From the NCBI GenBank assembly GCA_973895155.1, contig OZ316891.1:21278169-21342168 (forward strand): DNA of 64,000 nucleotides, written 5' to 3'. The stretch's first letter is position 1. Every line of letters begins with the position of its first letter. The position numbers and the translations under genes are program-made. Shown piece by piece: positions 6,674 through 63,465 of the stretch. The notes under the pieces are model-generated. The model was not told the origin of the DNA. It was given only the letters and a program-made list of their open reading frames with translations, and ran no database searches. Source of the DNA: Marsupella aquatica (taxonomy: Eukaryota; Plantae; Marchantiophyta).

Positions 6674-7907
6674 CTAAGAATCTCCAACCCAACCATGGTT
6701 CTCTCTTCTAACTTCATGAGGACCTTCAAATCGTGCTTGCATATCCATCCTTCTACAATGAATGGAATTTTTCATGATTGCACAGGCCCTGAATGAGGTT
6801 GCAAACTTAGGTCTGTGAAGGTCAAACCTTTTCATCATCCTTTTCATCATCTGCCTCCATTTTTGCTTCACGCCCCAATGACCCACTCAACCCGTACTCT
6901 GTACCCAACATGCATCTGATTAAATAACTTCATGGTCCTGTCGGTAAATGCAATGTCCTGATCTCAGTTTTACTAAATCCTCTCATCACAAACTTTTCCA
7001 TTCCTGTGTAACCAGAGTCGCCTAAGAGACATTCACAGTATCCAGGCACATTCTTGAATAGTTGTCTCCAGTTGCCTTCCATCCATGAATGCTTGAGTAT
7101 AGTAACATCATGGTAAAACCCTGGGTAGCCTCCATCCACAAACCTGAACAGTCCATCATGATCAACCACAACAGTTGAGTTCATGCAGTACATCTTCTTC
7201 CGCCCCTAGAACCACTTCTTATGCTTAGGATTCTCAAATGGTCTCGTGACTCTCACCAATGTTCCGTCCACAAACCCAATGCAACCAGGGAGTTGGGGAA
7301 TGCGGGTACATAAGACCCTTCTCTCGTCTTTGTTTGGCCATGAAATTTCTTGTCCAAGTGCTTCATTTACACAACTTGCAATGAAGATGGAATTGTCACA
7401 TAAGGCTGACCTAGCCCAGATCCAGATGGAAGCATCTAAGTAGATTATATTGTCATGCTTTGTGTACATGACATAGGCAAGCACTCTCTGTTCAGCTATC
7501 AATTTGCAGGGACGACCTGAAGCTATGTGAGATGTTCCTGTGGTTCTAGCATTAGCCTGAATGATGGGACATACAAAACCACAAAATTCATGGAATTCCT
7601 CAACTGTAAAACTAGTCAACTCTTTGAAACTGGGTTTGAAATGTGATGGATTCTGGATTGTTCTACCTAGTACATCATTAGCTGGCATGTGGCTGATCAG
7701 TGTGGATTGGCTTCCTCGTGTCATCTCAATTGACTGAAAGCACTCAAGCATGCTTACATATGCAACAAGAGCCCTGCCTACAATCATAAGCATGTGCTGC
7801 AGCAAGTTCTCGCGTGCTGCATTCTCCTCATCATCGCTGCTGCCCTCAATACTATCTACGTCTGAAAAAACAATGTCACCATCACCTCCATGGTTGTCAG
7901 CATCCAT
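6674..7907 (-). pseudogene. HARBI1-like DDE transposase (DDE_Tnp_4), disrupted
   Basis: Motifs CIGFVDGT, KWF*GRKKMYCMN (in-frame TAG at 7206-7208), YPGFYHD, LLGDSGY, then after a frameshift LFNQMHVGYRVRVEWVIG and a second shift to GVKQKWR. Confidence 0.85.
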
Positions 7908-9420
7908 CCCTAAGGTTCCGCTTGTTCTATCTCACCGCTGAATCTCTTGGTCTCGATCTGAATGCAATGCACATGAAGCTGCAAGCCCTAGTTGCTGTCT
8001 AAGCTAGTCGACTATAGTGGAAACTCCGTGATGGCTGCCTCGATCAGTTCCTCCCATGTTATCAGCTCTACATTGTAAGGTCTTAATCGGTCAATCCCAA
8101 GAACAGAGCACACAAATAGTGCCCGACCCAAACGCACGGAAACTGCGACTCGTGTCCTTGGTTCACTAACTCGACCATCTTTTAAAAACTCACCTAAATA
8201 TGGGTGACTTTGCAGATATCAACAATTCACCCATGGTCTTAAAAAATCAACGATGAAAAGAAGGGTGACTTTATGGATATATCTAATGCTGCCATTGCTT
8301 TTTTTGTATTCATAAAAATGTAATGATTTTGTATATGGATCACAAGTTCACCAAGGTAGGGGAACATATACGGAAATAGTGGAATTTGTAAATACAAGAA
8401 AATTATGGCAGTTTTATAAATTCAAACATCTTTAGTGACAATATACTTAAAAAAATGTAAAAGAGTTTTACATCCTTGCCAGTATCTCCTTTAGGATGCT
8501 CTTTTGACATGCTCTATTTTACATCATCTACATTTATGTCCCAAGGAACGACAATCAAACTTGTTTGAAAAAGGGAGAACCTAAAAGGATTATGATCTAA
8601 AGGGTGACATGCAATTACCTGTGCACCCTTGACTCCAATTTTGGGTGACCAAAGCAAAATCCAGGCATATGGTCTATAAAAAATGTATCTAATAAAGTGG
8701 GATAGAAAGCTAAGATAAGGGCTTAGAATCTTGAGTGAAGTCTCATCACCTATTTACGAGCCTATCCACATCTTAAACTCCACATCTTAAACATGACTTG
8801 TAAATCCCATGTGCACCTTGACCCCAATTTTGGGGTGACCTAATCAAACTTATCAGCGCACACAGTTTGTGTGGCTGTTGTGTGGCTGTTGTGTGGCTGT
8901 TTGTGGATGCTCACCTAGAATTCTAAAATCCACGAGGGCAGGTATTGTGCGGGGTGCGTCGGTGCCTACAACACAAAAGTCATCAGAACAAATCACGAGG
9001 TGGGAATAGGTGTGGAAAGTGTCCAACCATTAAAATAATGGGATATGTCGGTTGAGCCTGGCAGCATAATGCCTCCATCGATGCCTGGCTAAAGGATAGG
9101 TCTCCAGTTTGTGGAAAGCTTTGAACGGTTGACCGCAAAGTACTGGAGTGTGAAAGACTGAAAGTTAAAGTGCCTTGGCTGGAGGGAAGACTATTTATTT
9201 CTCCTGTATAAAGATTGTTGACCTGGATGGCTGGATTTGGAGACTAAACGGTGTACTTAATGGTATGATTTGTTTTTAATATTCTTCAATGCCTTTTCAT
9301 ATTTGAATTATATTATTTTACTGTCTAAGTGCAGGCTCTCGGGCACACACCCCAAGCTTGTAGTTCATCATAAGTGCATGTTACAATGGTTCATATGTGT
9401 ATGTTACAATTTTCAATAAT

Positions 9421-12176: not shown

Positions 12177-13808
12177 ATGAGAGTGATGGAAATCGAAGGG
12201 CGAAGGGTTGGAATGGCGTCGCGCTTGAAAGGGTGGCGGCAGCATAGGACGCTCGTGCTGGTGATAATTGCTTCCATTCTGGAGAGAGCAGACGTGGCAG
12301 TGATCCCAGCTGTGTACAGAGAAATAGGCTTGGCGATGCATTTCAATCCAACCTCAATAGGCGTTTTCAGGCTGGTGCAGATGCTCACGCAGGCAATCTC
12401 TTCCCCATTTGCTGGATACCTTGCATTGCGCTACAAGCGGACGAGAGTGATCGCAGGGGGAGCATTCGTGTCCACCATCGCCACGTTCAGCATCGGCATT
12501 TCCACCACCTTCCCCCAGATAGCCTTTTCCATAGCTCTCAACAGTCTGGGCGTGGCTGTCACCTGGCCGGCGATCCAATCCCTCATAGCGGATGCCACCG
12601 ATGAGAGCAACAGAGGAACTACTTTTGGATGGCTCCAACTCACGTCTCACGGAGGAGCGCTCTTTGGTGGAGTGACTGCTGTGCTGCTGGCCGGCACCTC
12701 CGTGTTGGGTATCTCTGGATGGCGGGTGGCGTTCTTTCTCATGTCCGCCCTCTCGCTCCTCATTGCCGTCTCTCTCCAACTCTTTGCAGAAGAACCAGTT
12801 CAGAATTCTGGCTCTCCTCTTGGTGCTGGTGGTTGGGGCGAAGAATTAGCCAAATCCACAATGGAAAATGGAGGAGAAGGAGAAGGAGAATTAGCAGCTT
12901 GCATAGAGAAAAAACCTTTCCACGTCAAAGCAGCTAGGGAGCAATGGAAGGACATGTTAGAGGACGTGAGGCTGGTCGTGGGGGTGAAGACGTTCCAGAT
13001 GATAGTGCTGCAAGGCATGGTGGTGTCCATCGGATGGTCCGCCCTCTCGTTCTCGACCATGTGGTTGGAGTTGGTCGGATTCTCCCATCCCCAGACGGCA
13101 ACCATTTTGGGGCTCTTCATCCTGGCAGGATCTCTGGGAGGTCTCTTCGGAGGATTCATGGGGGACCGAATCACTAGAGTACTACCCAATGCAGGGAGGA
13201 TCATTCTAGCTCAGTTCAGCAATGGGATTGCCGTTCCCTTCACCACAATTCTGCTGCTTCTGCTGACGGTGAACCCCTCCACGCCCTTCTATCACGGCCT
13301 GGTGTTCTTCCTGATGGGGTGCTGCATGTCCTGGACGGCACCGGCCGCGAACTATCCCATCATGGCCGAGATCGTGCCCTCCAAGTCCCGCACGAACGTC
13401 TACGCTCTGGAGAAGGGATTCGTCAGCATTCTGGGAGCCTTCTCTCCGCCGCTTGTGGGGCTGATGTCTGAGAAGGTCTTCGGCTACGTACCCGTTCCAA
13501 AAGGAGCTGACGGAAAGCTCCTCGTGAGCATGGATAGGAAGAATGCCGTGGCTCTAGGCCATGCTATGTACGCTTGCGCTGGACTGCCTTTCTTACTTTG
13601 TTGCCTGTTGTTCACTCCACTCTACTGGTATTATCCCAGGGATCGTGACCATGTCCGTGATCAGCTTCAAGCAGGTCAGAATCCACAAGATCTATCTGCA
13701 GGAGAGAAAGCCCAGTTTTGCATCATCCCAGAGGACGAGGAGGAGCCTCTGGGAGACGAGAACGAAGACTCGCGCGGCCTTTTAGGCCAAAAGCTGAGAT
13801 CAGTTTAG
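12177..13808 (+). CDS. Major facilitator superfamily transporter, plant UNE2-like family, intronless
   Basis: 543-aa ORF with many hydrophobic segments. Family-typical ILERAD..IPAVYREIG, IQSLIADATDESNRG..FGWLQLT, GGFMGD, AEIVP..SRT and YWYYPRDRD. Confidence 0.93.
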   Translation: MRVMEIEGRRVGMASRLKGWRQHRTLVLVIIASILERADVAVIPAVYREIGLAMHFNPTSIGVFRLVQMLTQAISSPFAGYLALRYKRTRVIAGGAFVSTIATFSIGISTTFPQIAFSIALNSLGVAVTWPAIQSLIADATDESNRGTTFGWLQLTSHGGALFGGVTAVLLAGTSVLGISGWRVAFFLMSALSLLIAVSLQLFAEEPVQNSGSPLGAGGWGEELAKSTMENGGEGEGELAACIEKKPFHVKAAREQWKDMLEDVRLVVGVKTFQMIVLQGMVVSIGWSALSFSTMWLELVGFSHPQTATILGLFILAGSLGGLFGGFMGDRITRVLPNAGRIILAQFSNGIAVPFTTILLLLLTVNPSTPFYHGLVFFLMGCCMSWTAPAANYPIMAEIVPSKSRTNVYALEKGFVSILGAFSPPLVGLMSEKVFGYVPVPKGADGKLLVSMDRKNAVALGHAMYACAGLPFLLCCLLFTPLYWYYPRDRDHVRDQLQAGQNPQDLSAGEKAQFCIIPEDEEEPLGDENEDSRGLLGQKLRSV

Positions 13809-36100: not shown

Positions 36101-36938
36101 ATTGGCCACATTTGGACTGTGATTTAAGAGGTCATATATCTTCTTGTCGGCTTTCAAGGCAAAATCATCAACAACATGATGTGAAGGTCTCGACCCAAGT
36201 GAGTCTCTACGGTGCATGTGACGTGTGAAATGATGTGAAGGTCTCGATTGAAAGTGGGTCTCGATGGGTGCATTTAAAGTGTGAAATGTCAGACAGGGAG
36301 CTCAACGGCATTTCACATTTGGTCCTTCCTCCTGTTTGTTTCAGAGTACAAAAGCTCATTCCAGCAAATCTCTGGGAGACAATTCTCAGCCTCACAGATA
36401 TATTGGTATGCATTCGTAGCTCCAAGCCTTTCTGGCTACAGCTTGCAGATCATACTGAGTTCATCAGCAACATTGCCCTCGAGAGGATGCAAGTACCAGA
36501 AATCGAAAGACGTGTCTTCTATTCAACACACATACCCTAGGGGAGAGTACAAATTACGTAAGAGGAAACGAGGACGAGAAAAACAAAAACAACTGTGGAA
36601 GCCATCAATCACAAGAGCAGGAACCTTTTATTAAATTGCTATAATGATGAATGTAACCTAACTAAGATAAATGTTGCCAAAGCAAAACATTAATTTGCAA
36701 AGAACTGCAAATCACTAGCTATGGCAATTGTGTGTCCTAATCAAATCTCAATACAATCTAGCTGACGCCGTTGCTTTTGATAATCTCTTTCTACAATCTA
36801 ACATTACTACAAGGTCTTTGACCTTACGTACGAAATCTTTGTCGTATACCATGTAATGCAAGAATTATGATTTATCTATACAATATGGAATCCATTCTCA
36901 GCAAGGAACATCTGTACTTCTAGGCTGACAATGAGAAA

Positions 36939-38795
36939 TCACGATTGACTGGTTTCTAATGAATGCTCTGCAGTCCCATTGAGACCGCGACTGTACACAC
37001 TCGAGATCACCGGCTTCCCGGGTTTTAAAGGGACCATGCTATGATCCGTTGTCAGCTGTACCCCCTCCTGCGTGAGATTATATAGACATGTCTGAAAGTA
37101 GGGCGCAAGATCATTGATACGCAGCCCATTCAAATTGTTATATGGACACGAATACCTTACCTCAGCTGTCTGGTAGCATAAATCAACAGTCGTGTCCCTC
37201 TCACAAGCAGGAAGATCATCACCCTCTCTAGTCTCGATCTTCCATGGAATTAGAGAGCCATAGGCCTGGCCCAACCCTCCAAATGTGGAGATGGGAGTGT
37301 TGAGCAGAGTGTCTGAGAAACTGAGAAGAAAAATCTCTACCAGTGACTGGGCATCCACATCCACTCCAAATGCCTGCACAGAATTGCTGGTAAGTTGGAT
37401 CAAAGTTACGTTGTCTCCAGACACCAGAGGTCTAGACAAGTACACATTCGTCATGTGGTCCTGGAACCCAGTGTAGAGCGAGGCGACAAAAACTTGTACA
37501 GCCTTTTTACCCCGCGGTTCAGGAAACGGGGTACCACTTGCATTTGTTTGCAGAGCAGGAAAAATGCCATTCTCAATAGCGCAGGACATGATGCGCTCGT
37601 TGAAGATGTCATTCATCTGGTCGTATTGAACCCTCCCATAGTAGTACCGGACCTGAATGCCCACTCTGTGATCTACCTTTGGAAAATGAGCCTTCTCAGT
37701 TTCGACCACTTTCTCCCACACATGATCCTGTGGCAGCATGATGGTCCTCAGCATCTGCGTGAGCACAAATCTGCCAGGGAAGAGAGCATCCAAAGTCTTG
37801 CGAAAGGTTGGCACTGCGAAGAACTTCGGAATGGTGTAAATGCACCCGGTGAAGTAGAGCCATGTGACTCCATAGAAACTGGATTGTTCTTTGTCGCAGA
37901 AGAACCTGTTGTCCGGATGGTACTGAGAAAGCTCCATGCTTGCAGCAAACACATTTGACTGGGGAGAGTCCAAATACGCAGAGGTGTTATTGGTCATCCC
38001 TTCATCCAGCTCCGCGTACAAATCCTTGTAGAAAACCCAGATGTGCTGGGCCTCGTCTGACCAGGGGTAAAACGAGAACGGGCTGTAGGAATCCAAATCC
38101 CATGAAGAACCAGAGAAGGGCTCGCACATGAGGGTGGTCATCAGGTTGCTTTGGGGGACCAATACCACTCTCTGAGTCAAAATCGCATACAGAATAACAC
38201 TTGTGACGGATAAGATCCTGTTGGAGAGCCCAGCAGGGATGCCAAAATCAATGTCAGCAACTGCAAACTTACAGCCTGAGCTGGTATTCATCTCTAGGAA
38301 CTGCTCTCTGAGGTTGCCACCTAATTTCTGCATACAAGTCCGGTGGAGTGTACTGTACTCCTGCAGAACCATATCCCAGAGAGGATTGTCCGCCATATCC
38401 CTCACATCCTTCCTCCTAGCGTACATAGGAGTGAGCTCTACACGACTTCGGCAAGGGTTGGTGCGAGTCCAGTTCTGATAGTCCTCATGACTAAAGATTG
38501 GCGGGTCCACCCCATTATTGGCAGCTCGAGCTGCTGCTCTGGTTGCTTCCAGCAACTCTAGGACACTCTTAGGAACGTCCGGTCTAGGTAGCGTGTTATG
38601 GACAAGAGACTCAACATGTTTGCTCTCTATGACGCTCTTGAGATGGCGGATCTCGTGGGTCCTGCTTGACAATAGCCTAAAACTGAAAACGGAGCTCAGG
38701 AAGGTAACCATTAAGATGCAGGATGCTAACTGTATCCTCAGTCCCGTGTTCATGGTCATCTTCGTTGACGTGTTCATAATCATCTTAACTGACAT
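36939..38795 (-). CDS. GT37 (xyloglucan FUT1/MUR2-like) alpha-1,2-fucosyltransferase, intronless CDS
   Basis: 618-aa ORF with N-terminal TM anchor and motifs GLSNRILSVTSVILYAILTQRV, MCEPFSGSSW, RFFCD, RVGIQVR, VFVASL, EIFLLSFSD.LLNTPISTFGGLGQ. Confidence 0.93.
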   Translation of the reverse strand: MSVKMIMNTSTKMTMNTGLRIQLASCILMVTFLSSVFSFRLLSSRTHEIRHLKSVIESKHVESLVHNTLPRPDVPKSVLELLEATRAAARAANNGVDPPIFSHEDYQNWTRTNPCRSRVELTPMYARRKDVRDMADNPLWDMVLQEYSTLHRTCMQKLGGNLREQFLEMNTSSGCKFAVADIDFGIPAGLSNRILSVTSVILYAILTQRVVLVPQSNLMTTLMCEPFSGSSWDLDSYSPFSFYPWSDEAQHIWVFYKDLYAELDEGMTNNTSAYLDSPQSNVFAASMELSQYHPDNRFFCDKEQSSFYGVTWLYFTGCIYTIPKFFAVPTFRKTLDALFPGRFVLTQMLRTIMLPQDHVWEKVVETEKAHFPKVDHRVGIQVRYYYGRVQYDQMNDIFNERIMSCAIENGIFPALQTNASGTPFPEPRGKKAVQVFVASLYTGFQDHMTNVYLSRPLVSGDNVTLIQLTSNSVQAFGVDVDAQSLVEIFLLSFSDTLLNTPISTFGGLGQAYGSLIPWKIETREGDDLPACERDTTVDLCYQTAEVRYSCPYNNLNGLRINDLAPYFQTCLYNLTQEGVQLTTDHSMVPLKPGKPVISSVYSRGLNGTAEHSLETSQS

Positions 38796-39724
38796 TTCAA
38801 CGCCGTTGCCAATAAAAGTGTCACTAATCTAAGACCTGTTTCATGAAATCCACCGAAATGCGTGGTTCATATAGTTCCGGGAACGAGAAAAATAATTCTA
38901 GCAGAAGTGGAGACCACACCATCTCCAAGACATCTCTCGCTCGGAATTCCGTCCACATCCAACCGGCCGGACTTCGAATGAATCCAAACAAGAAGTGATG
39001 TGGCTGCCAGTGACTGTTGCCGCGGTCGAACAGCAGAACCCTCCAGCTGGTCGATCCCGTCGAATAAAGTCTTGAGGTCTAAAACCCTCTGACGGACTTC
39101 CTCTCTAAGACGAGCTCTCGATTTCAAGCAGTTAACCTTGCAGCACATATTTCTGTCTCGTCCACGTGCTGTAAATATGGCGAAAGACGTAGGTGCCGCA
39201 GCCAAGTACTTCCGTCATCGTCCCGAACACCAGTACAGCTGACCATCTTACCATCTGCCCGTAAAACCACACGTGAAGCAGCTAAACCTGCTCAATCCCA
39301 CTTTGCGTTTCCCACATTCACCCTTCAGAAACGAGCCACGGTGAACCTCGATGAGCGGACAACTTTACAAGATCCGAGCTCAAGCAGAACAATAATCAGC
39401 AACTGCGTGGGAAAACCGACAGACTCGACAGCCCCCGGAGCCCATCACCCTATTACTTTGTAGAAACGATCAATTCAAATTTCCTGTACAAGTATACGAA
39501 GAAGTGTGACGGCAAGTTCTTCGCGAGACGCGACACACAAACGGGAGGCAGGCGCTTGGAAAGGAGATATTCCCTAGTCTAAGACACTACTTTTCACCCA
39601 AGTATGACGAAGACTTCAATTGCACAATAAAAAATTCCTTCCGTGGCCAACGTGTAGGAAACGACAACGCCACAAGGGTGAGATGTATAATATGAGGTCC
39701 GTCTCGGCAAAACTGAACATTCAC

Positions 39725-40503
39725 CTCACACTAAGGCACACACGATGACTGTCACATCCCCTATGGCTTGACCAAGCAATATGCACTGGCGACGAGGAAA
39801 TTGTGATCTTCTCTATAACGCTACACAGAACCAGTAACCCGAATAGGGATCGCAATCAGACGAAACTTTCACAATCGAAGCCTAAATCTAAGAATTGATG
39901 CAGGACACAAATTTACTCACTTCAAGTACTATTGGGTACAGGAAGAAACCGTACACGAAGTTGGACAAAAATGACTACCTTGTCCAGGCCGACACGCCAG
40001 AAGGAGGTTTTCACAATGTTGGCCAGAGCTTGACAGGCCATAACTGCACATTTCTCCAAAACGATGAGCTTCGATTTGTAATTAAATTCCGAAACGATAA
40101 GCTAAGCATCGACTCCAGCGCAGAGCTCTGGCATCAAGCAATAACAATCCCGCCCAAGCAGTGCAGAGAAAGCGAAGAAAATCCACACTACGACAGCGTA
40201 CAGCAGCGCCAACCCAATTCGGTTGGTTTCACAACCGATTAGAGTAACACAGCTGTGTGACAAAACCTCAAATACTTTCCGTAATGCAGAGCTCTAGAAA
40301 TATAACAGACATCTCACGTCACCGGCAGTCAGATATATCTGCATCTAGAACTGTAACTGACGTCTCACGTGACCAGCAGCCAGATAGATAGATAGGGTCC
40401 GGCATACCATTTTGAGTCCGCACACCCTGCCCTGTCGATCGTCAAACAAGTCCACGTCTGCCGGTAGAACCACAAGTGAACCACCGAAACCTCCTCAATC
40501 CCG
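39725..40503 (-). pseudogene. CCT1: 5' fragment (three exons) of CCT1/TCP-1 alpha with intact splice sites
   Basis: Exon 40503-40408: DLFDDRQ/GQGVRTQN (frameshifted). Exon 40043-39979: VMACQALANIVKTSFWRVGLDK. Exon 39785-39725: LLGQAIGDVTV. Matches plant CCT1 GDRQSGQDVRTQNVMACQAV.NIVK.SLGPVGLDKMLVDDIGDVT. Confidence 0.85.
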
Positions 40504-41572
40504 CTGTCAGTGCATTCCCCGCATTCACCTTCCAAAAACGAGCCAAATTTCCTGCGCGACCGGATATGTGCTCGTCGATGCGCCGCTACACGGCGGGACT
40601 ACTTTACAAGCTCCAAGCTGAAGCAGCACAAGAGAGTGCAACCAGCTATGTGGAAACTCCAACACAAATCAAATCCCCAAGCACAGCGAATGAGAGCTCA
40701 AACGCACGAGACGATCTCTTCCCGAACCGACTGCTTCAACGCAACCACTTCCTCTAGCAGACAACGTGAGACCGAGCTTATTGCGGACCAGCACATCAAA
40801 CCAATCCCAACACCCGCCTTCTTCATTCCCCCTTCGCTTTTCCGCCCTCATCTACAGTACTACATCCTCCTCCCTCAAATCGAATCAGCAGCCAGCGGGG
40901 AGAGATGCGGCCCGTGAGTCAGTCGTGCGCACTTGTCAAGGGATGGAGGCGCATCGATCTCCAGAGTAAAAAGTTGCAACCGCCAGAGAGCTCGAGCTCG
41001 AGAGCGAGAGCGAATGATGAATAGTTTCTTCAGCAGTAGCAAGAGCAGGAGCAGCTGACGAGGCGCCACTCGAGGAGGCGAAGGAGCCGGGCAGCGCGGA
41101 GATGGCAGAGGTGTTCGATTTTCGTGTGAGGAAATCGATGCGCTCTCTCTCCATTGCTCAGATCTCGGTGTACATGCTATCTCGGCAGGGCTCGAGCCTC
41201 GAGAGCACGATTGCACGGACGTAAAGGATAATGGCGGTTTAGTCTGGTCCACGGAATTGTACATCAAAATATGACATGTGTACGGCAAATTTCCATCATA
41301 CCGTAATAAACCTCCTCTTTATTTTCTTTAGATCAATGCACACCATATGTTACCCCCGGTTTGACCTGTCAAACTGGCCCAAAAACGAAGTCAAATCGAC
41401 AAACTGGTCTCCCGGAGTTGGGGTCGGGTCCGGGTGTGAGGACGGAGCCGGGCCGGGTGTTAGGGGGTTTGGGATGGGGTCAGGAGGAGTCTGGGCCCGG
41501 ACCGGGCCAAGGTCGGCAGGGTTTGTGATTGGGTCGGGAGGAGTCTGGGAATACCAAACAAGTAAATACCAG

Positions 41573-41595
41573 AGGGTTAGGGTTTAGGGTTTAGG
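41573..41595 (+). repeat. Short interstitial telomere-like (TTTAGGG) tract
   Basis: gggttagggtttagggtttagg. A similar short tract is at ~62431-62448. Confidence 0.55.
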
Positions 41596-41799
41596 AGTCG
41601 AGAGGAGTCTGGTAGAGAGATGTGCAGTAAGTGATGTATATGGGCTTTGGATGATGTTGTTGTTCATGACATTTCTTGATTTGAGTGTTATATCTAACAA
41701 GATGCAGATTGTTTTGCAATTGTGAAGAAAGAGAAAGCAAGAATAATGCAATCCATACTCACTTGATTGATACAAATCAAGAACAATTTTGAAAATCAT

Positions 41800-42220: not shown

Positions 42221-42529
42221 TGGAAGTGTCCAAGAAATTTGTGGAGGAGAAGGTGGTCAGCAACTCAGGTCTTCTCAAATCATTCATTGACAAGGTCAGC
42301 ATAAAATTGAATCTGCACCTGTCGCGTATGAATCCAAGACTTCAGGTATTTTGGTGATTTCCAAATCTTGATGCTTGATATCTTCTTGTTGTTCATGTTC
42401 ATTTCAGAGTCTGATTTATGGTCCTATTGGTGGCAGGAAGCAAGCAGTGGAAAAGCAAGTGAAGAACTTGCACTTAACAAGGGCAACGACAAGGAAGTTC
42501 AAAAAATTCAAGAATCTTGCATGAATTGT

Positions 42530-44000
42530 TTTTTTTTAAGACTCTCCAGCTGGTCTAACAAACAGTTCTCTTTCACAGGTTGTGTTCTTCTCATCAAGCA
42601 AGTCCTACAGTCAATGACAGTCTACCACATGATGTATACTTACATTGCAGGCAGCCTTTCTAAACAGATTTGTCAAACTTGTGAAGATTTTCTATGGGGA
42701 TATAATAAAGACGGAGGCATGAAGACTCCCCTTGTTTCTTGGGATCGGATGTGTTGCAGGAAGCAGGACGGTGGCCTTGGGTTCAAAGATATTCAACCGC
42801 AAGCTTTGGCCCTGCTTGCCAGATGGACGGTCATAATGATAACGGACCCAAAGTTGGACTAGACAAAGCTTTTTTCTGCTAATATCAGATTGGTCGCTTG
42901 GAATCAGTCGGTTCTCCTAAGAGAGTCGGGATCCACTCCTATGGACAGATTCCCTTGTTCATCCCCCTTGGGTTTCCATGGTATGAATTATACTGAGGAT
43001 ATATGGCGGGCTTGGTATCAGATCTGGGAGTACTTGCACTGGCACTCTAACTCCCTTCCCCTTCCTACCCGATGGCATATAGATGACCTCCTCAGAATAT
43101 TTTTCCGTTCTCAGAGTCTCTCCATAGCTATTCTCCCAATCAGTTCTTCTGCTTGCTCCAGGTTACATATAAGATCTATTTTTGATCTTTGGGTCTGGCA
43201 TGATGACATCTAGATAGACTTCTCATTCAAAATCTCTCACCTACGTGGCATTGGGGCTTTGACCTCCATTGTTCTCTCTAACATTCTCTGCTATTTTCAA
43301 GATGGACCTCAACCATCCGGCTCTTCTTCTTTTGTTCATTCACAGTGCTATTGGAAGGGATTAATAAACATCACCATTCCCCTCGTTCTCTAAGGAGTGT
43401 TCAGGCATACAAGTATATTGATAGGTCGATCTGGAGATGACATCTGTTCATTGAACATCCGGTGGGGAACACCTGACTCCAGTTCACTTGGCAGAGAAGA
43501 TGGAGGCGGATTTGGAGGTTGGACTTGTCACATTGTGCGAAGATATTTCTCTGGCAGGTCCTTGCTACTGGTTTGTTCACGGGTCAGAGAGCTTTTCAAT
43601 GCAGCCATGGGGATGACATGTGCCCTTTTTGCCATAGTTGCCCTGAAGATATCAAGCACATTTTTGTTTCCTGTACTCAAGCATCTTAGCCTAGAATCGG
43701 ACCACATGGTTCTATGAACGGGCTCCTGCTATTCTTTGCTCCCGGGTGGCCAATCCCTCACCACCATGCTCGACCTGGCTCTAGGGAGATCTCCTTGACT
43801 ATCGGCCCGTATTTTTGTTATCTATCAAACTCTGTGGTTACTATGGAAAAATTGTAACTCCCATCACTTTTAGGGATTATCTGTTGTATATTCGCCTTCA
43901 GCAGCCTCTTCCGCTGCTCTTGAGCATAAACACTCTCTTGCCTTGGTTTGGACTCTGAAAAAAAGAGACTGCACTACACTGAGAAATATATCCCGAGTCC
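42530..44000 (+). mobile_element. 5'-truncated degenerate L1 LINE (ORF2 C-terminal part)
   Basis: RLSSWSNKQFSF..VLLIKQVLQSM, FLWG, LVSWDRMC..KQDGGLGFKD, and zf-RVT-like KIFLWQ...CPFCHSCPEDIKHIFVSC with stops and frameshifts. Confidence 0.85.
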
Positions 44001-51969: not shown

Positions 51970-52530
51970 TCAGTAGCCATTCATGCTTCCTGGGGGAATT
52001 ACGTTTTGCAATTTCGCAATAGGGTGGTGACTGGTGCAGAATTCATGAATCCGCAATTCTGAGTTCTAGTGCTTAGTTAATCGTACTTTCCTAGGAAATG
52101 ATGTTTTACAAGTTTGCAACAGTAGCAATTCACGCTTCACTGGGGAATGGCGTTTTACAATTTCGCAACAGAGTGGTGACTGGGGCAGAATTCATGAATC
52201 CGTAATTCTGAGTTCTAGTGCTTAGTTAATCGTACTTTCCTAGGAAATGATGTTTCACAAGTTTGCAACAGTAGCAATTCACGCTTCACTGGGGAATGAC
52301 ATTTTACAATTTCGCAACAGAGTGGTAACTGGGGCAGAATTCATGAATCCGCAATTCTGAGTTCTAGTGCTTAGTTAATCGTACTTTCCTAGTAAACGAT
52401 GTTTTACAAGTTTGCAACAATAGCAATTCACGCTTCACTGGGGAATGACGTTTTACAATTTCACAACAGAGTGGTGACTGGGCCAGAATTCATGAATCCA
52501 CAATTCTGAGTTTGTTCTAGTGCTTAGTTA
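51970..52530. repeat. 149-bp tandem repeat, ~3.8 copies
   Basis: Units start at ~51970, 52120, 52269 and 52418, with high identity. Confidence 0.92.
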
Positions 52531-60529: not shown

Positions 60530-61330
60530 GCGTTTCCCAGATTTTTCAATCTTCAACACACTTTGAATCAGACCGCATCAGCTAAGTTTCCCATATTTCT
60601 CAATCTCCAACACACTTTGAATCAGACCGCATCAGTTATAGTTCACGTATCTTGTAAACCAAGGATTGTGACATGTTATTGGCTGGATTTGATCCTGATT
60701 CAAGGTCTTTCCCTCAATTGAGGATGATATCGACAACATTGATTTCCTGCTCACTTTCAGAAATTCTTTTGCTTAAGAATCCTGTCGACAATGTAAATTT
60801 GCAATCGTTGTCACGAATTACTGAGTCAAAGACTCAATAAAAAGTACACGAGATTGTAAGATTGTTGTCCATTGAGAGAGTTGACAAATTGTCTAGAAGT
60901 GTGAAATACTTACTGAGAACCTCGATGGAGTACAGTTCCAAATTTACAATCCATGTCACAAATTCCCAAGTCAAGACTCAACAAAATTACACGAGAAAAA
61001 TTGCACAGTTGTTGTCCATTGAGAGAAGAATCTACAAATTATCTTGAAGTCTGAAATCCTTCATGAGAACCTCAATGGAGTGTAGCAACAGTTGCATCAT
61101 GAAAGCCCTGCCGGTAATCACACATCAAAAGGTAATATACAGTGCACTCATTGATTTAAAGAAAATAAGGTTTATCAGGTATGGAAGTGATTTCGGCTAT
61201 GTCATATTTTGATGTGCAATTATCATGACCTGAATGGAAGTGCACTCATTGATTTAAAGAAAATAAGGTTTATCAGTATGGAGTGATGTCCTCTATGTCA
61301 TATTTTGATGTTCAATTACCATGACCGGAA
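60530..61330. repeat. Cluster of three independent local tandem duplications
   Basis: caacacactttgaatcagaccgcatcag x2, ttgttgtccattgagaga...tgagaacctcratggag x2, agtgcactcattgatttaaagaaaataaggtttatcag x2. Confidence 0.75.
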
Positions 61331-61977
61331 TGAAAGTCTGTGACTCCAAACCAAGACCTAACAGAGTAGTGAGAGAGTGGGAAGATTCAACAGCTCAAGA
61401 ACCTCAACGGTTGATGACTTGATGTCCCAAAAGGAAGGGCAGCCGGTTGATGACTTGATGGCCCAAAGGAAGTTGACTAGTTCATGATTAGGTGGATAAC
61501 CACGTTTGACTGAAGGACTCCTATGGACTAAGGAAGGAAGGTGGTACTTATTAGATGGACCAAGCACTATTTCAAACCCATAAATATGAGCATTCATACA
61601 CAGAAAAGGTTTCATCTGAGTAAAAAGTAACAAGTTAGGATGGTCCCTGGAAGTTTCAGCAGTCCATCCATCTTGTTGAACGTCTTCTTGTGTAACTTGA
61701 TGCTCAGATGACCATCACACAAGCCTGACTACTACCTGTTCTATGAACAAAAATAGAGGTAAGGATAGGAAAAACCTTGCACAAAAAAAAGTGTGATACA
61801 AGAAGGCCTGATAACTGCAAACTGATCGGAAAAATCTGTATGGGAGCCAACAAAGCACACAAGAGTCCCAATCAGAGTTTAGAGGAGAGTGGCAGACCTG
61901 AGCTCTAGAACCTAAGCAACCATGGGCTACCCACCCGCTGGCCCTCAAAACACTAAACCCTTCCCTAGCCACCCCTT

Positions 61978-63465
61978 CATCAGCCAAAGCTTCAATGTCG
62001 TCCCATCTTTGGTGTCCTTGCCATTGTTAAACCTTTGGTGTGCAGTAACACCTTTAGGCCTCTAACGGGTTTCAAACCAACAAGGACCCTTCTTGACAAA
62101 ATAATATTTCATAAACAGACCATGAGAAAGAGACAACAAAAATATTTGTACATTGTAGTGTTTAGATAAATAGATAAATTGCCTGAACCTGAAATTACTC
62201 AGGTAACCATTCAGTCATCACTCCATCTAGCCATTTTTTTTGACAAAATTTTGCCAATCACTTACCTTGAAAATTTGCTGGCTAATGGTAATGGAGTTTA
62301 GCTCTCTACTATTGGCCACCATTGAATCCCCTGTGTAGGTGCATTCCCCAGAAAATTATCCTACTTTTTCCAGAAGGTATTGTACAATTGACTATCCCTA
62401 GTGCATAATTACACTAAATGCCTTGCTGCATTTAGGGTTTAGGGTTTAAATTCATCTAGTTTGCGTTGTTTCTGCTCAATTGTACTGAGCCCTTGGAGAG
62501 ACAAGGGGCCAGCCGGTGTAGCCCTCTCCCAGAAATCCTGCTCCTCCTCCATTGAATTAAGTGCATCTTCAATCTGCAAGCGCAAATTCAATCTCCACAC
62601 TTGAAGATGATCCATGACAAAAATCCTATGAAATCAGGCAGAGTGCTTTACTTTCATGAAAAGCTTCAAGGGGCACAGCTATGGAGTGTTTAGGGTACCT
62701 CAGTTCTTGCTTGCAGATTTTTCCAGTGTCTCAACAGCCGCAATGTGCTCCTGCATCGGTGAGGGAGTTTGAACCTGGGTTGCTCAGGTTTGAGCATGAG
62801 TTAATCATTTTCAGGCATCTTTTTACAAGGCATGGGTGCAACGCCTATTGTGCACCCGAGCCATATCACGATGCAGGCCTCCAAACGGCTGTGACATATT
62901 TCCCTTTGGCAGGGTTGGCCCACAAAACAGGTTGCAGATGGTCTTATTTAGCTTCTCTTTGCAAATCATCAGCTAGATGTAATTTGTCCAAGCTGTTCTC
63001 TATTGGGACAGTGCCATCAGCCAAAGCTTCAATGTGATCTTATATCTTTGTGTCATTGCCATTGTTGAACCTTTGGTGTGCAGTAACACCATTAGGCCAT
63101 CTCACGGGAAAATTGGCAAAAATGTAACCATAATTAGATCATCACTCCATCTAGCCATTTTTTTGTGGGCAAAAATTTGCCAATCACTTACCTTTAAAAT
63201 GTGCTGGCTAATGGTAATGGGGTTTAGCTCTCTACCAGTGGCCACCATTGAACTAATGGTTATGGGAGTAATTTCAGGTTGAGACAATTTATCTATCCAT
63301 CTAAACACTACAATATAATTTTGTTCTCTCTTTCTCATGGTCTGTTTATGAATGTTTGGCAAGAAGAAACCTTGTTGGTTTGAGGTGCATTGCCCAGAAA
63401 GCTACTTTAGCCAGAAAGTATTGTACAATTTGACTATTCATAGTGCATAATTACACTAAATGCCT
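61978..63465. repeat. Rearranged direct repeat pair with an inverted internal module
   Basis: Copies at ~61978-62425 and ~63014-63465. Module ~62070-62200 reappears reverse-complemented at ~63267-63383. Confidence 0.75.

What the first reader, a model, noticed from the sequence alone, without database searches (positions are those of the whole stretch)
38795..41150. Fucosyltransferase appears to use a dead CCT1 chaperonin gene as its spliced 5' leader
Seen: on the same strand just upstream of the intronless GT37 ORF is a chain of exons with intact AG/GT ends (40503-40408, 40043-39979, 39785-39725, 39402-39252, acceptor at 38835, 40 nt before the FUT ATG). Known: the first three translate to the N-terminus of CCT1/TCP-1 alpha. 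The CCT1 frame is broken (no start ATG, frameshift, LGP changed to FWR) but splice sites survive. Inference: a chimeric gene in which FUT recruited the promoter and exons of a CCT1 duplicate.
Basis: partly seen in the sequence, partly recalled or inferred. Interest (0 to 1): 0.85.

Follow-up and report, generated by a model that had tools for sequence, protein, structure and literature searches.

The report
Chaperonin relics before a fucosyltransferase gene
In a leafy liverwort, the 2 kb in front of an intact fucosyltransferase gene holds a dead copy of the front end of the chaperonin gene CCT1 and a likely older second copy behind it; the enzyme's mRNA likely starts in and is spliced from these relics, a known way for genes to gain a new leader, but no RNA was available to test it.

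Summary
The CCT1 relic is real; the proposed five-exon chain is not supported. Exons 1 and 2 are CCT1 (E 7e-5, 4e-13) with the conserved plant intron positions. 'Exon 3' is at best a 31-nt remnant without either ancestral splice site. 'Exon 4' is a tandem, 80% identical copy of the DNA leading into exon 1, probably followed by an older intron-1 relic. A second dead copy elsewhere in the genome shares the frameshifts, so the fragment died before it spread. Its exons and intron have diverged alike (10/161 vs 28/364), so surviving AG/GT is expected by chance (P about 0.5). The FUT is older (83% to Calypogeia fissa proteins) and the arrangement is shared with a sister organism. Only 215-420 nt of non-relic DNA precede its acceptor, and the donor at 39252 ranks 2 of 184, so a short leader spliced 39252>38835 is the likeliest use (about 45%). 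No RNA run was listed, so splicing is untested. This is a new case of a known kind (truncated duplicate fused to a neighbour). The scan's notes hold no earlier report of it.

The parts
36939..38795 (-). Intact intronless GT37 fucosyltransferase ORF, 618 aa
   Evidence: PF03254 E 4.6e-51; 83% to Calypogeia fissa P0001 and P0049
38796..38835 (-). Candidate last leader exon, 40 nt, behind an AG
   Evidence: acceptor rank only 43 of 134 under a vascular-plant matrix; splicing inferred
38836..39251 (-). Candidate 416-nt 5' UTR intron; holds 8 ATGs; strong donor
   Evidence: donor rank 2 of 184; inferred, no RNA
39050..39230 (-). Likely old relic of the 5' half of CCT1 intron 1
   Evidence: z 3.1-4.2 in 4 scoring schemes, 0-1 of 400 shuffles, 2-4 of 1336 window chunks; the 3' half down to 38836 is not significant
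39252..39421 (-).
   Evidence: score 141 vs 33+-5; 134 of 168 ungapped columns, 40 gap columns
39459..39535 (-). Segment also present downstream of exon 2 in an apparently intact CCT1 of organism B, so CCT1 intron DNA
   Evidence: joint 39535>39969 and loose end at 39459; that this record is the intact gene is inferred from contig overlap
39746..39779 (-). Possible remnant of the first 11 codons of CCT1 exon 3, ancestral splice sites absent
   Evidence: missed; inconclusive
39979..40043 (-). CCT1 exon 2 relic, 65 nt, both ends ancestral, LGP>FWR
40044..40407 (-). CCT1 intron 1 relic, 364 nt
   Evidence: position between exons 1 and 2; 28 substitutions against the second dead copy
40408..40458 (-). 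CCT1 exon 1 coding relic, frameshifted, no start codon
   Evidence: frameshifts shared with the second copy
40457..40664 (-). Upstream copy of the leader block; 40664-40518 also found at another locus of the same genome at 88%
   Evidence: record 6. CCT1 5' UTR origin is inferred, not shown
40816..41005 (-). Second shared leader block, GC-rich, also at other loci; possible first exon
   Evidence: records 6 and 22, loose ends at 40971 and 41005
41381..41640 (-). Multi-copy repeat holding a telo-box-like motif (41592); a site-II-like motif at 41381; possible promoter or transposon end
   Evidence: depth and loose ends; motif scan (motifs and their meaning recalled, not tested)

Best explanation
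An old, intact fucosyltransferase gene lies behind two tandem relics, one a clear dead copy of the front end of CCT1 and one a likely older copy, and its mRNA likely starts within these relics and is likely spliced from the strong donor at 39252 to the acceptor at 38835, so that the relic would act as a non-coding leader. Inferred history: a 3'-truncated CCT1 5' segment landed upstream of the FUT; in that FUT-proximal copy most CCT1 coding DNA was deleted and a new donor arose. A better-preserved, already frameshifted CCT1 fragment of a small dispersed family lies in tandem upstream. Its exons 1 and 2 may be spliced in as optional upstream exons but show no sign of selection. No CCT1-FUT fusion protein can form: every join tested meets a stop before the FUT ATG, and the leader would add short uORFs that would lower translation.
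For: Shown: CCT1 identity and intron positions of exons 1-2; tandem copy 39421-39254 with a continuation that aligns to intron 1; FUT intact, in a 100-support clade with two C. fissa proteins (quick tree), with no gaps in three organism-B pieces over 36312-38495; arrangement bridged in organism B by contigs 36312-39854 and 39051-40037. Only about 215 nt (to 39050) or 420 nt (to 39254) of non-relic DNA precede the acceptor. Donor 39252 ranks 2 of 184 and has no counterpart in the upstream copy. The splice would remove 8 ATGs, leaving 2. The FUT-proximal part is less diverged from organism B than the upstream part (33/987 vs 47/828, Fisher p 0.02) and nearer the coding rate (51/2214).
Against: Acceptor 38835 ranks 43 of 134 (matrix from 25 vascular-plant introns, poorly calibrated for a liverwort). 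The intron-1 likeness of the older copy is weak: one control pair reached z 2.2, the 3' half is not significant, and at 3 sites where the second copy and organism B both differ from the window the older copy carries the window's letter, against expectation. No intact CCT1 5' UTR was aligned, so the leader blocks may come from another gene. The divergence contrast is one test on two contigs and may be regional mutation rate. Even the short leader keeps 2 uORFs.
Confidence: 0.45

Rival explanations
1. The relics are inert neighbours. The FUT has its own short promoter and unspliced 5' UTR within about 400 nt of its ATG.
For: Neutral-looking decay (exon 10/161 vs intron 28/364, p 0.59); a second dead copy keeps the same splice dinucleotides with no known FUT beside it; weak acceptor score at 38835.
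Against: Little room; 8 ATGs within 416 nt upstream of 38835; strong new donor at 39252; lower divergence of 39051-40037 from organism B.
Confidence: 0.25
2. The leader blocks (41005-40816, 40664-40457 and the copy at 39421-39254) belong to the FUT's own or another gene's or element's leader, and only 40457-39430 is CCT1, inserted by a template switch or carried in a Pack-type mosaic. The promoter is then not CCT1's.
For: The two block copies agree up to the point where CCT1 coding likeness begins, at a 5-6-nt shared stretch. Related records break at 40518, 40506 and about 40501 and carry different neighbours; one locus has both blocks at 88% but no CCT1 exon was laid from it. A multi-copy repeat lies just upstream.
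Against: The proximal copy continues into intron-1-like DNA. No inverted-repeat pair flanks the relics. Copy number is low.
Confidence: 0.2
3. The first reader's exact chain 40408>40043>39785>39402>38835 is the main FUT leader, kept by selection, under the CCT1 promoter.
For: All AG/GT present; donors rank 1, 2, 6 and 14 of 184.
Against: Acceptors 40503 and 39785 rank 57 and 51 of 134; exon 3 lacks ancestral sites; 5 upstream ATGs with a 40-codon uORF; one organism-B record lacks about 270 nt that include the 40503 acceptor; no excess conservation.
Confidence: 0.1

Closest known systems
3'-truncated human segmental duplicates with fusion transcripts (SRGAP2B/C, NOTCH2NL-NBPF, ARHGAP11B); GTF2IP1/4 led by a GATSL2 duplicate; CHRFAM7A (PMC6169893: abstract, section 6 and passages read)
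   Same: A partial duplicate keeps a gene's 5' end and splices into neighbouring sequence; fused exons are mostly non-coding; CHRFAM7A models have a multi-exon 5' UTR with uORFs.
   Different: Here the downstream partner is an old, whole, intact gene; there are two tandem relics of different age; fusion transcripts are not shown.
jingwei (Adh retrocopy behind three exons of the duplicate Yande) and Sdic (PMC3449122: passages read)
   Same: Single-exon enzyme ORF behind the 5' exons of an unrelated duplicated gene.
   Different: jingwei comprises three Yande exons plus a retrocopy (that they are protein-coding is recalled); here the CCT1 frame is dead, no fusion protein is possible, and nothing shows the FUT is a retrocopy.
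Pack-MULE and Helitron gene-fragment capture (PMC5861414: passages read)
   Same: Dispersed dead gene fragments at several loci beside a repeat; read-through fusion with nearby genes is described.
   Different: No terminal inverted repeats or transposon ends found around the relics; very low copy number.
Drosophila 'tinkering loci' composite transcripts (bioRxiv 10.64898/2026.08.09.743762: abstract and section 9 read)
   Same: Duplicated fragments without an ORF co-transcribed with other genes; loci both receive and disperse fragments.
   Different: Only one donor gene is identified here, and transcription is untested.
Plant GT37 fucosyltransferases (Marchantia Mp2g16920, Mp4g23180 listed in PMC12398305: passages read)
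   Same: PF03254 above cut-off; 45-48% to the nearest Marchantia and Riccia proteins.
   Different: A long-branch clade shared only with C. fissa among 18 proteins placed in the tree; substrate not tested.

Membership tests
Unprocessed partial CCT1 duplicate (pseudogene fragment) | Significant likeness to CCT1 alpha | tested here: met
   exon 2 and exon-1 tail
Unprocessed partial CCT1 duplicate (pseudogene fragment) | Ancestral introns retained (DNA-level copy) | tested here: met
   intron 1 and intron 2 donor positions match
Unprocessed partial CCT1 duplicate (pseudogene fragment) | Broken frame, neutral decay | tested here: met
Unprocessed partial CCT1 duplicate (pseudogene fragment) | Intact parent elsewhere | tested here: inconclusive
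   an organism-B record reads in frame over 30 nt of exon 1; no such record laid in organism A; no whole genome held
Chimeric gene with a recruited leader | Transcripts join donor-gene exons to the ORF | not testable with these tools
   no RNA holder listed
Chimeric gene with a recruited leader | Donor gene's promoter included | tested here: inconclusive
   blocks upstream of exon 1 are duplicated elsewhere but not tied to an intact CCT1
Chimeric gene with a recruited leader | Selection on splice sites or exons | tested here: inconclusive
   no exon-intron contrast (p 0.59); test has no power for 8 letters; proximal part less diverged (p 0.02)
Chimeric gene with a recruited leader | Arrangement kept in a relative | tested here: met
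   organism B, 2-6% diverged; C. fissa DNA not available
jingwei-type protein chimera | In-frame fusion of donor exons to the ORF | tested here: not met
   all upstream ATGs in 6 candidate leaders stop before the FUT ATG
Pack-MULE | Terminal inverted repeats and target-site duplication around the fragments | tested here: not met
   none flanking; decay could hide them
GT37 fucosyltransferase | PF03254 above gathering score, whole ORF | tested here: met
   174 bits vs 23.4
GT37 fucosyltransferase | Fucosyltransferase activity | not testable with these tools
   needs assay

The most novel reading that the evidence does not exclude
A dead CCT1 front end works as a portable promoter-and-leader cassette in this liverwort lineage: the FUT took it up twice in series, other loci carry it too, and it gives its hosts a housekeeping-type promoter with uORF-damped translation.
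Probability: 0.12. Interest if true: 0.62.

Novelty: new member of a known kind. Interest (0 to 1): 0.33.

Why it matters
If RNA confirms it, this is a plant example, in a poorly sampled lineage, of an old enzyme gene swapping its 5' control region for relics of a housekeeping gene without any change of protein. Two relic ages in tandem and a dead sister copy elsewhere give built-in controls for asking whether such leaders are selected or merely tolerated. The kind of event is well known from animals, so the surprise is moderate.

Tried and rejected
No RNA holder listed; the four runs laid behave as genomic contigs and show no GT-AG joint; this is no evidence on expression. X1 matches the window letter for letter and may be its source, so it is not independent support. 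No whole genome held. A homologue search with the 59-aa exon-2 frame found 0 of 6 candidates. A liverwort-biased exon-2 pattern found 0 loci; the wider one found 14, none named as a liverwort. None of the named proteins among the 120 CCT1 hits listed, of 3937, is from a bryophyte, so the parent's start codon and 5' UTR stay unknown. The longer C. fissa FUT (691 aa) is extended at its C-terminus, not by CCT1. A likeness of the leader block to CCT1 exon 4 was rejected (13-14 of 60 shuffles; no nhmmer hit in the region). Homology of the whole 416-nt intron to CCT1 intron 1 down to the acceptor was rejected. The break at 40435 in run X2 is a doubled GATC, likely a ligation junction, not an insertion allele (library not on record). 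No Rfam match. A search meant to give this organism's own introns returned 2 unrelated low-complexity proteins. The bacterial promoter scan is irrelevant. The careful tree did not finish; only the quick tree was used. Paper searches (listings only) showed nothing on a CCT1-FUT chimera; the library lacks most subscription papers and no supplements were read.

Full report
Setting. The ORF at 38795-36939 (minus) is a 618-aa GT37 fucosyltransferase. Its nearest relatives are two Calypogeia fissa proteins at 83%, then Marchantia and Riccia at 45-48%. The window thus comes from a leafy liverwort, and the FUT gene is older than anything datable upstream.

Observation. A degenerate exon-2 pattern fetched 14 plant CCT1 loci, which show intron 1 after the QN codons, a 65-nt exon 2 and a 90-nt exon 3. 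The window's exon-1 donor and exon 2 fit this exactly, and both score well (E 1e-5; 0 of 60 shuffles with each of 3 queries; E 7e-5 and 4e-13). No other CCT1 coding exon was found in the 64 kb. 'Exon 3' is doubtful: 1-2 of 60 shuffles reach its score; it is the top nhmmer hit but at E 0.54 over 31 nt, and a whole-CDS profile misses it.

A second dead copy. Laying contigs on 39965-40525 shows another copy in the same genome, about 92% identical, from 40506 down to 39793. It has no indel between 40408 and 40486, so it shares the exon-1 frameshifts. It reads LGR where the window reads FWR and has its own replacement changes. The fragment was therefore dead before the two copies parted. Of 44 differing letters reported, 38 are listed: 10 in 161 exon bases and 28 in 364 intron bases (Fisher p 0.59). 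At this divergence all 8 splice-site letters survive by chance with probability 0.54.

What 'exon 4' is. 39421-39254 is a tandem copy of 40664-40457, the block leading into CCT1 exon 1 (score 141, shuffles 33+-5; 134 of 168 ungapped columns). Behind it, 39230-39050 aligns to the 5' half of CCT1 intron 1 (z 3.1-4.2 in four schemes, 2-4 of 1336 real chunks as high). The 3' half does not align, one control pair reached z 2.2, and the column-level check gave 3 of 7 and three sites against expectation, so this link is likely but not firm. The simplest reading is two head-to-tail relics: a better-preserved one (about 41005-39430) and a more decayed one next to the FUT that lost most coding DNA and gained a donor at 39252.

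Sister organism. Runs X3 and X4 (organism B, one study) carry the same order: one contig spans 36312-39854 with 91 substitutions, another 39051-40037 with 33, and overlapping contigs go on to 41338. No single contig spans all of it. Three pieces over 36312-38495 have no gaps. Organism B also has a record whose exon 1 reads in frame and whose intron 1 does not align at 82%, likely the intact parent; a record overlapping it also matches 39535-39459, which makes that stretch CCT1 intron DNA (linkage inferred). Other records share blocks 41005-40816 and 40664-40518 but continue differently at 40518, 40506 or about 40501. The leader is thus a small dispersed family, and its upstream blocks are not proven to be CCT1's own UTR or promoter.

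How it most likely works. With a matrix from 25 introns of 4 CCT1 loci, donors 39979, 39252, 40408 and 39725 rank 1, 2, 6 and 14 of 184; acceptors 39402, 40043, 38835, 39785 and 40503 rank 5, 16, 43, 51 and 57 of 134 (acceptor scores are poorly calibrated for a liverwort). Only 215-420 nt of non-relic DNA precede 38835, and the 416-nt stretch holds 8 ATGs. The proximal part differs less from organism B (33/987) than the upstream part (47/828; p 0.02), with the mostly coding pieces at 51/2214. Shown: anatomy, homology, conservation. Inferred: start site, splicing, history. I give the short spliced leader 0.45, inert relics 0.25, a non-CCT1 leader with an inserted CCT1 piece 0.20, and the exact chain 0.10.

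Comparison. 3'-truncated duplicates that keep a promoter and fuse to neighbours, mostly through non-coding exons, are described as common among human duplicates (PMC6169893, section 6 and passages). jingwei and Sdic are older chimeric cases (PMC3449122, passages), Pack-MULEs and Helitrons do the like in plants (PMC5861414, passages), and composite transcripts with ORF-less fragments are reported in Drosophila (10.64898/2026.08.09.743762, section 9). The locus works like these if spliced, fails the tests for a protein chimera and for a Pack-MULE, and cannot be filed as a chimeric transcript without RNA. Searches showed no paper on this locus, and the scan's notes hold none.

Verdict. A real, tandem and dispersed CCT1 5' relic in front of an old FUT, probably but not demonstrably used as its leader, and in a shorter form than proposed. 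New member of a known kind; interest 0.33.

Noticed in passing
window 12177-13808 (+): Intronless 543-aa major-facilitator transporter (PF07690, E 4e-39).
   Followed up: no
window 6933-7931 (-): Broken DDE_Tnp_4 transposase (PF13359, E 5e-10 on 6933-7205), likely PIF/Harbinger type (recalled).
   Followed up: partly
window 42332-43500 (+): Decayed frames that look like the 3' part of a LINE reverse transcriptase (by eye, recalled); Pfam gave no supporting hit. It bounds the FUT upstream region.
   Followed up: partly
window 41238-41338 and 61149-61334: Inverted likeness of 72-80% over 40-85 nt, twice near 61.2 kb, 20 kb apart; likely a dispersed repeat.
   Followed up: partly
window 62072-63383: Nested inverted repeats of 29-63 nt around about 1.1 kb, MITE-like.
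   Followed up: no
window 51971-52512: Tandem array with a 149-nt period and palindromic units.
   Followed up: no
window 38795-38740 (-): The FUT N-terminus has short Met-rich repeats whose number differs among the window and the two C. fissa proteins.
   Followed up: no
P0049 (C. fissa CAM6088085.1): The second C. fissa copy departs from the family after residue 554 with an unrelated tail; mis-annotation or a damaged copy.
   Followed up: no
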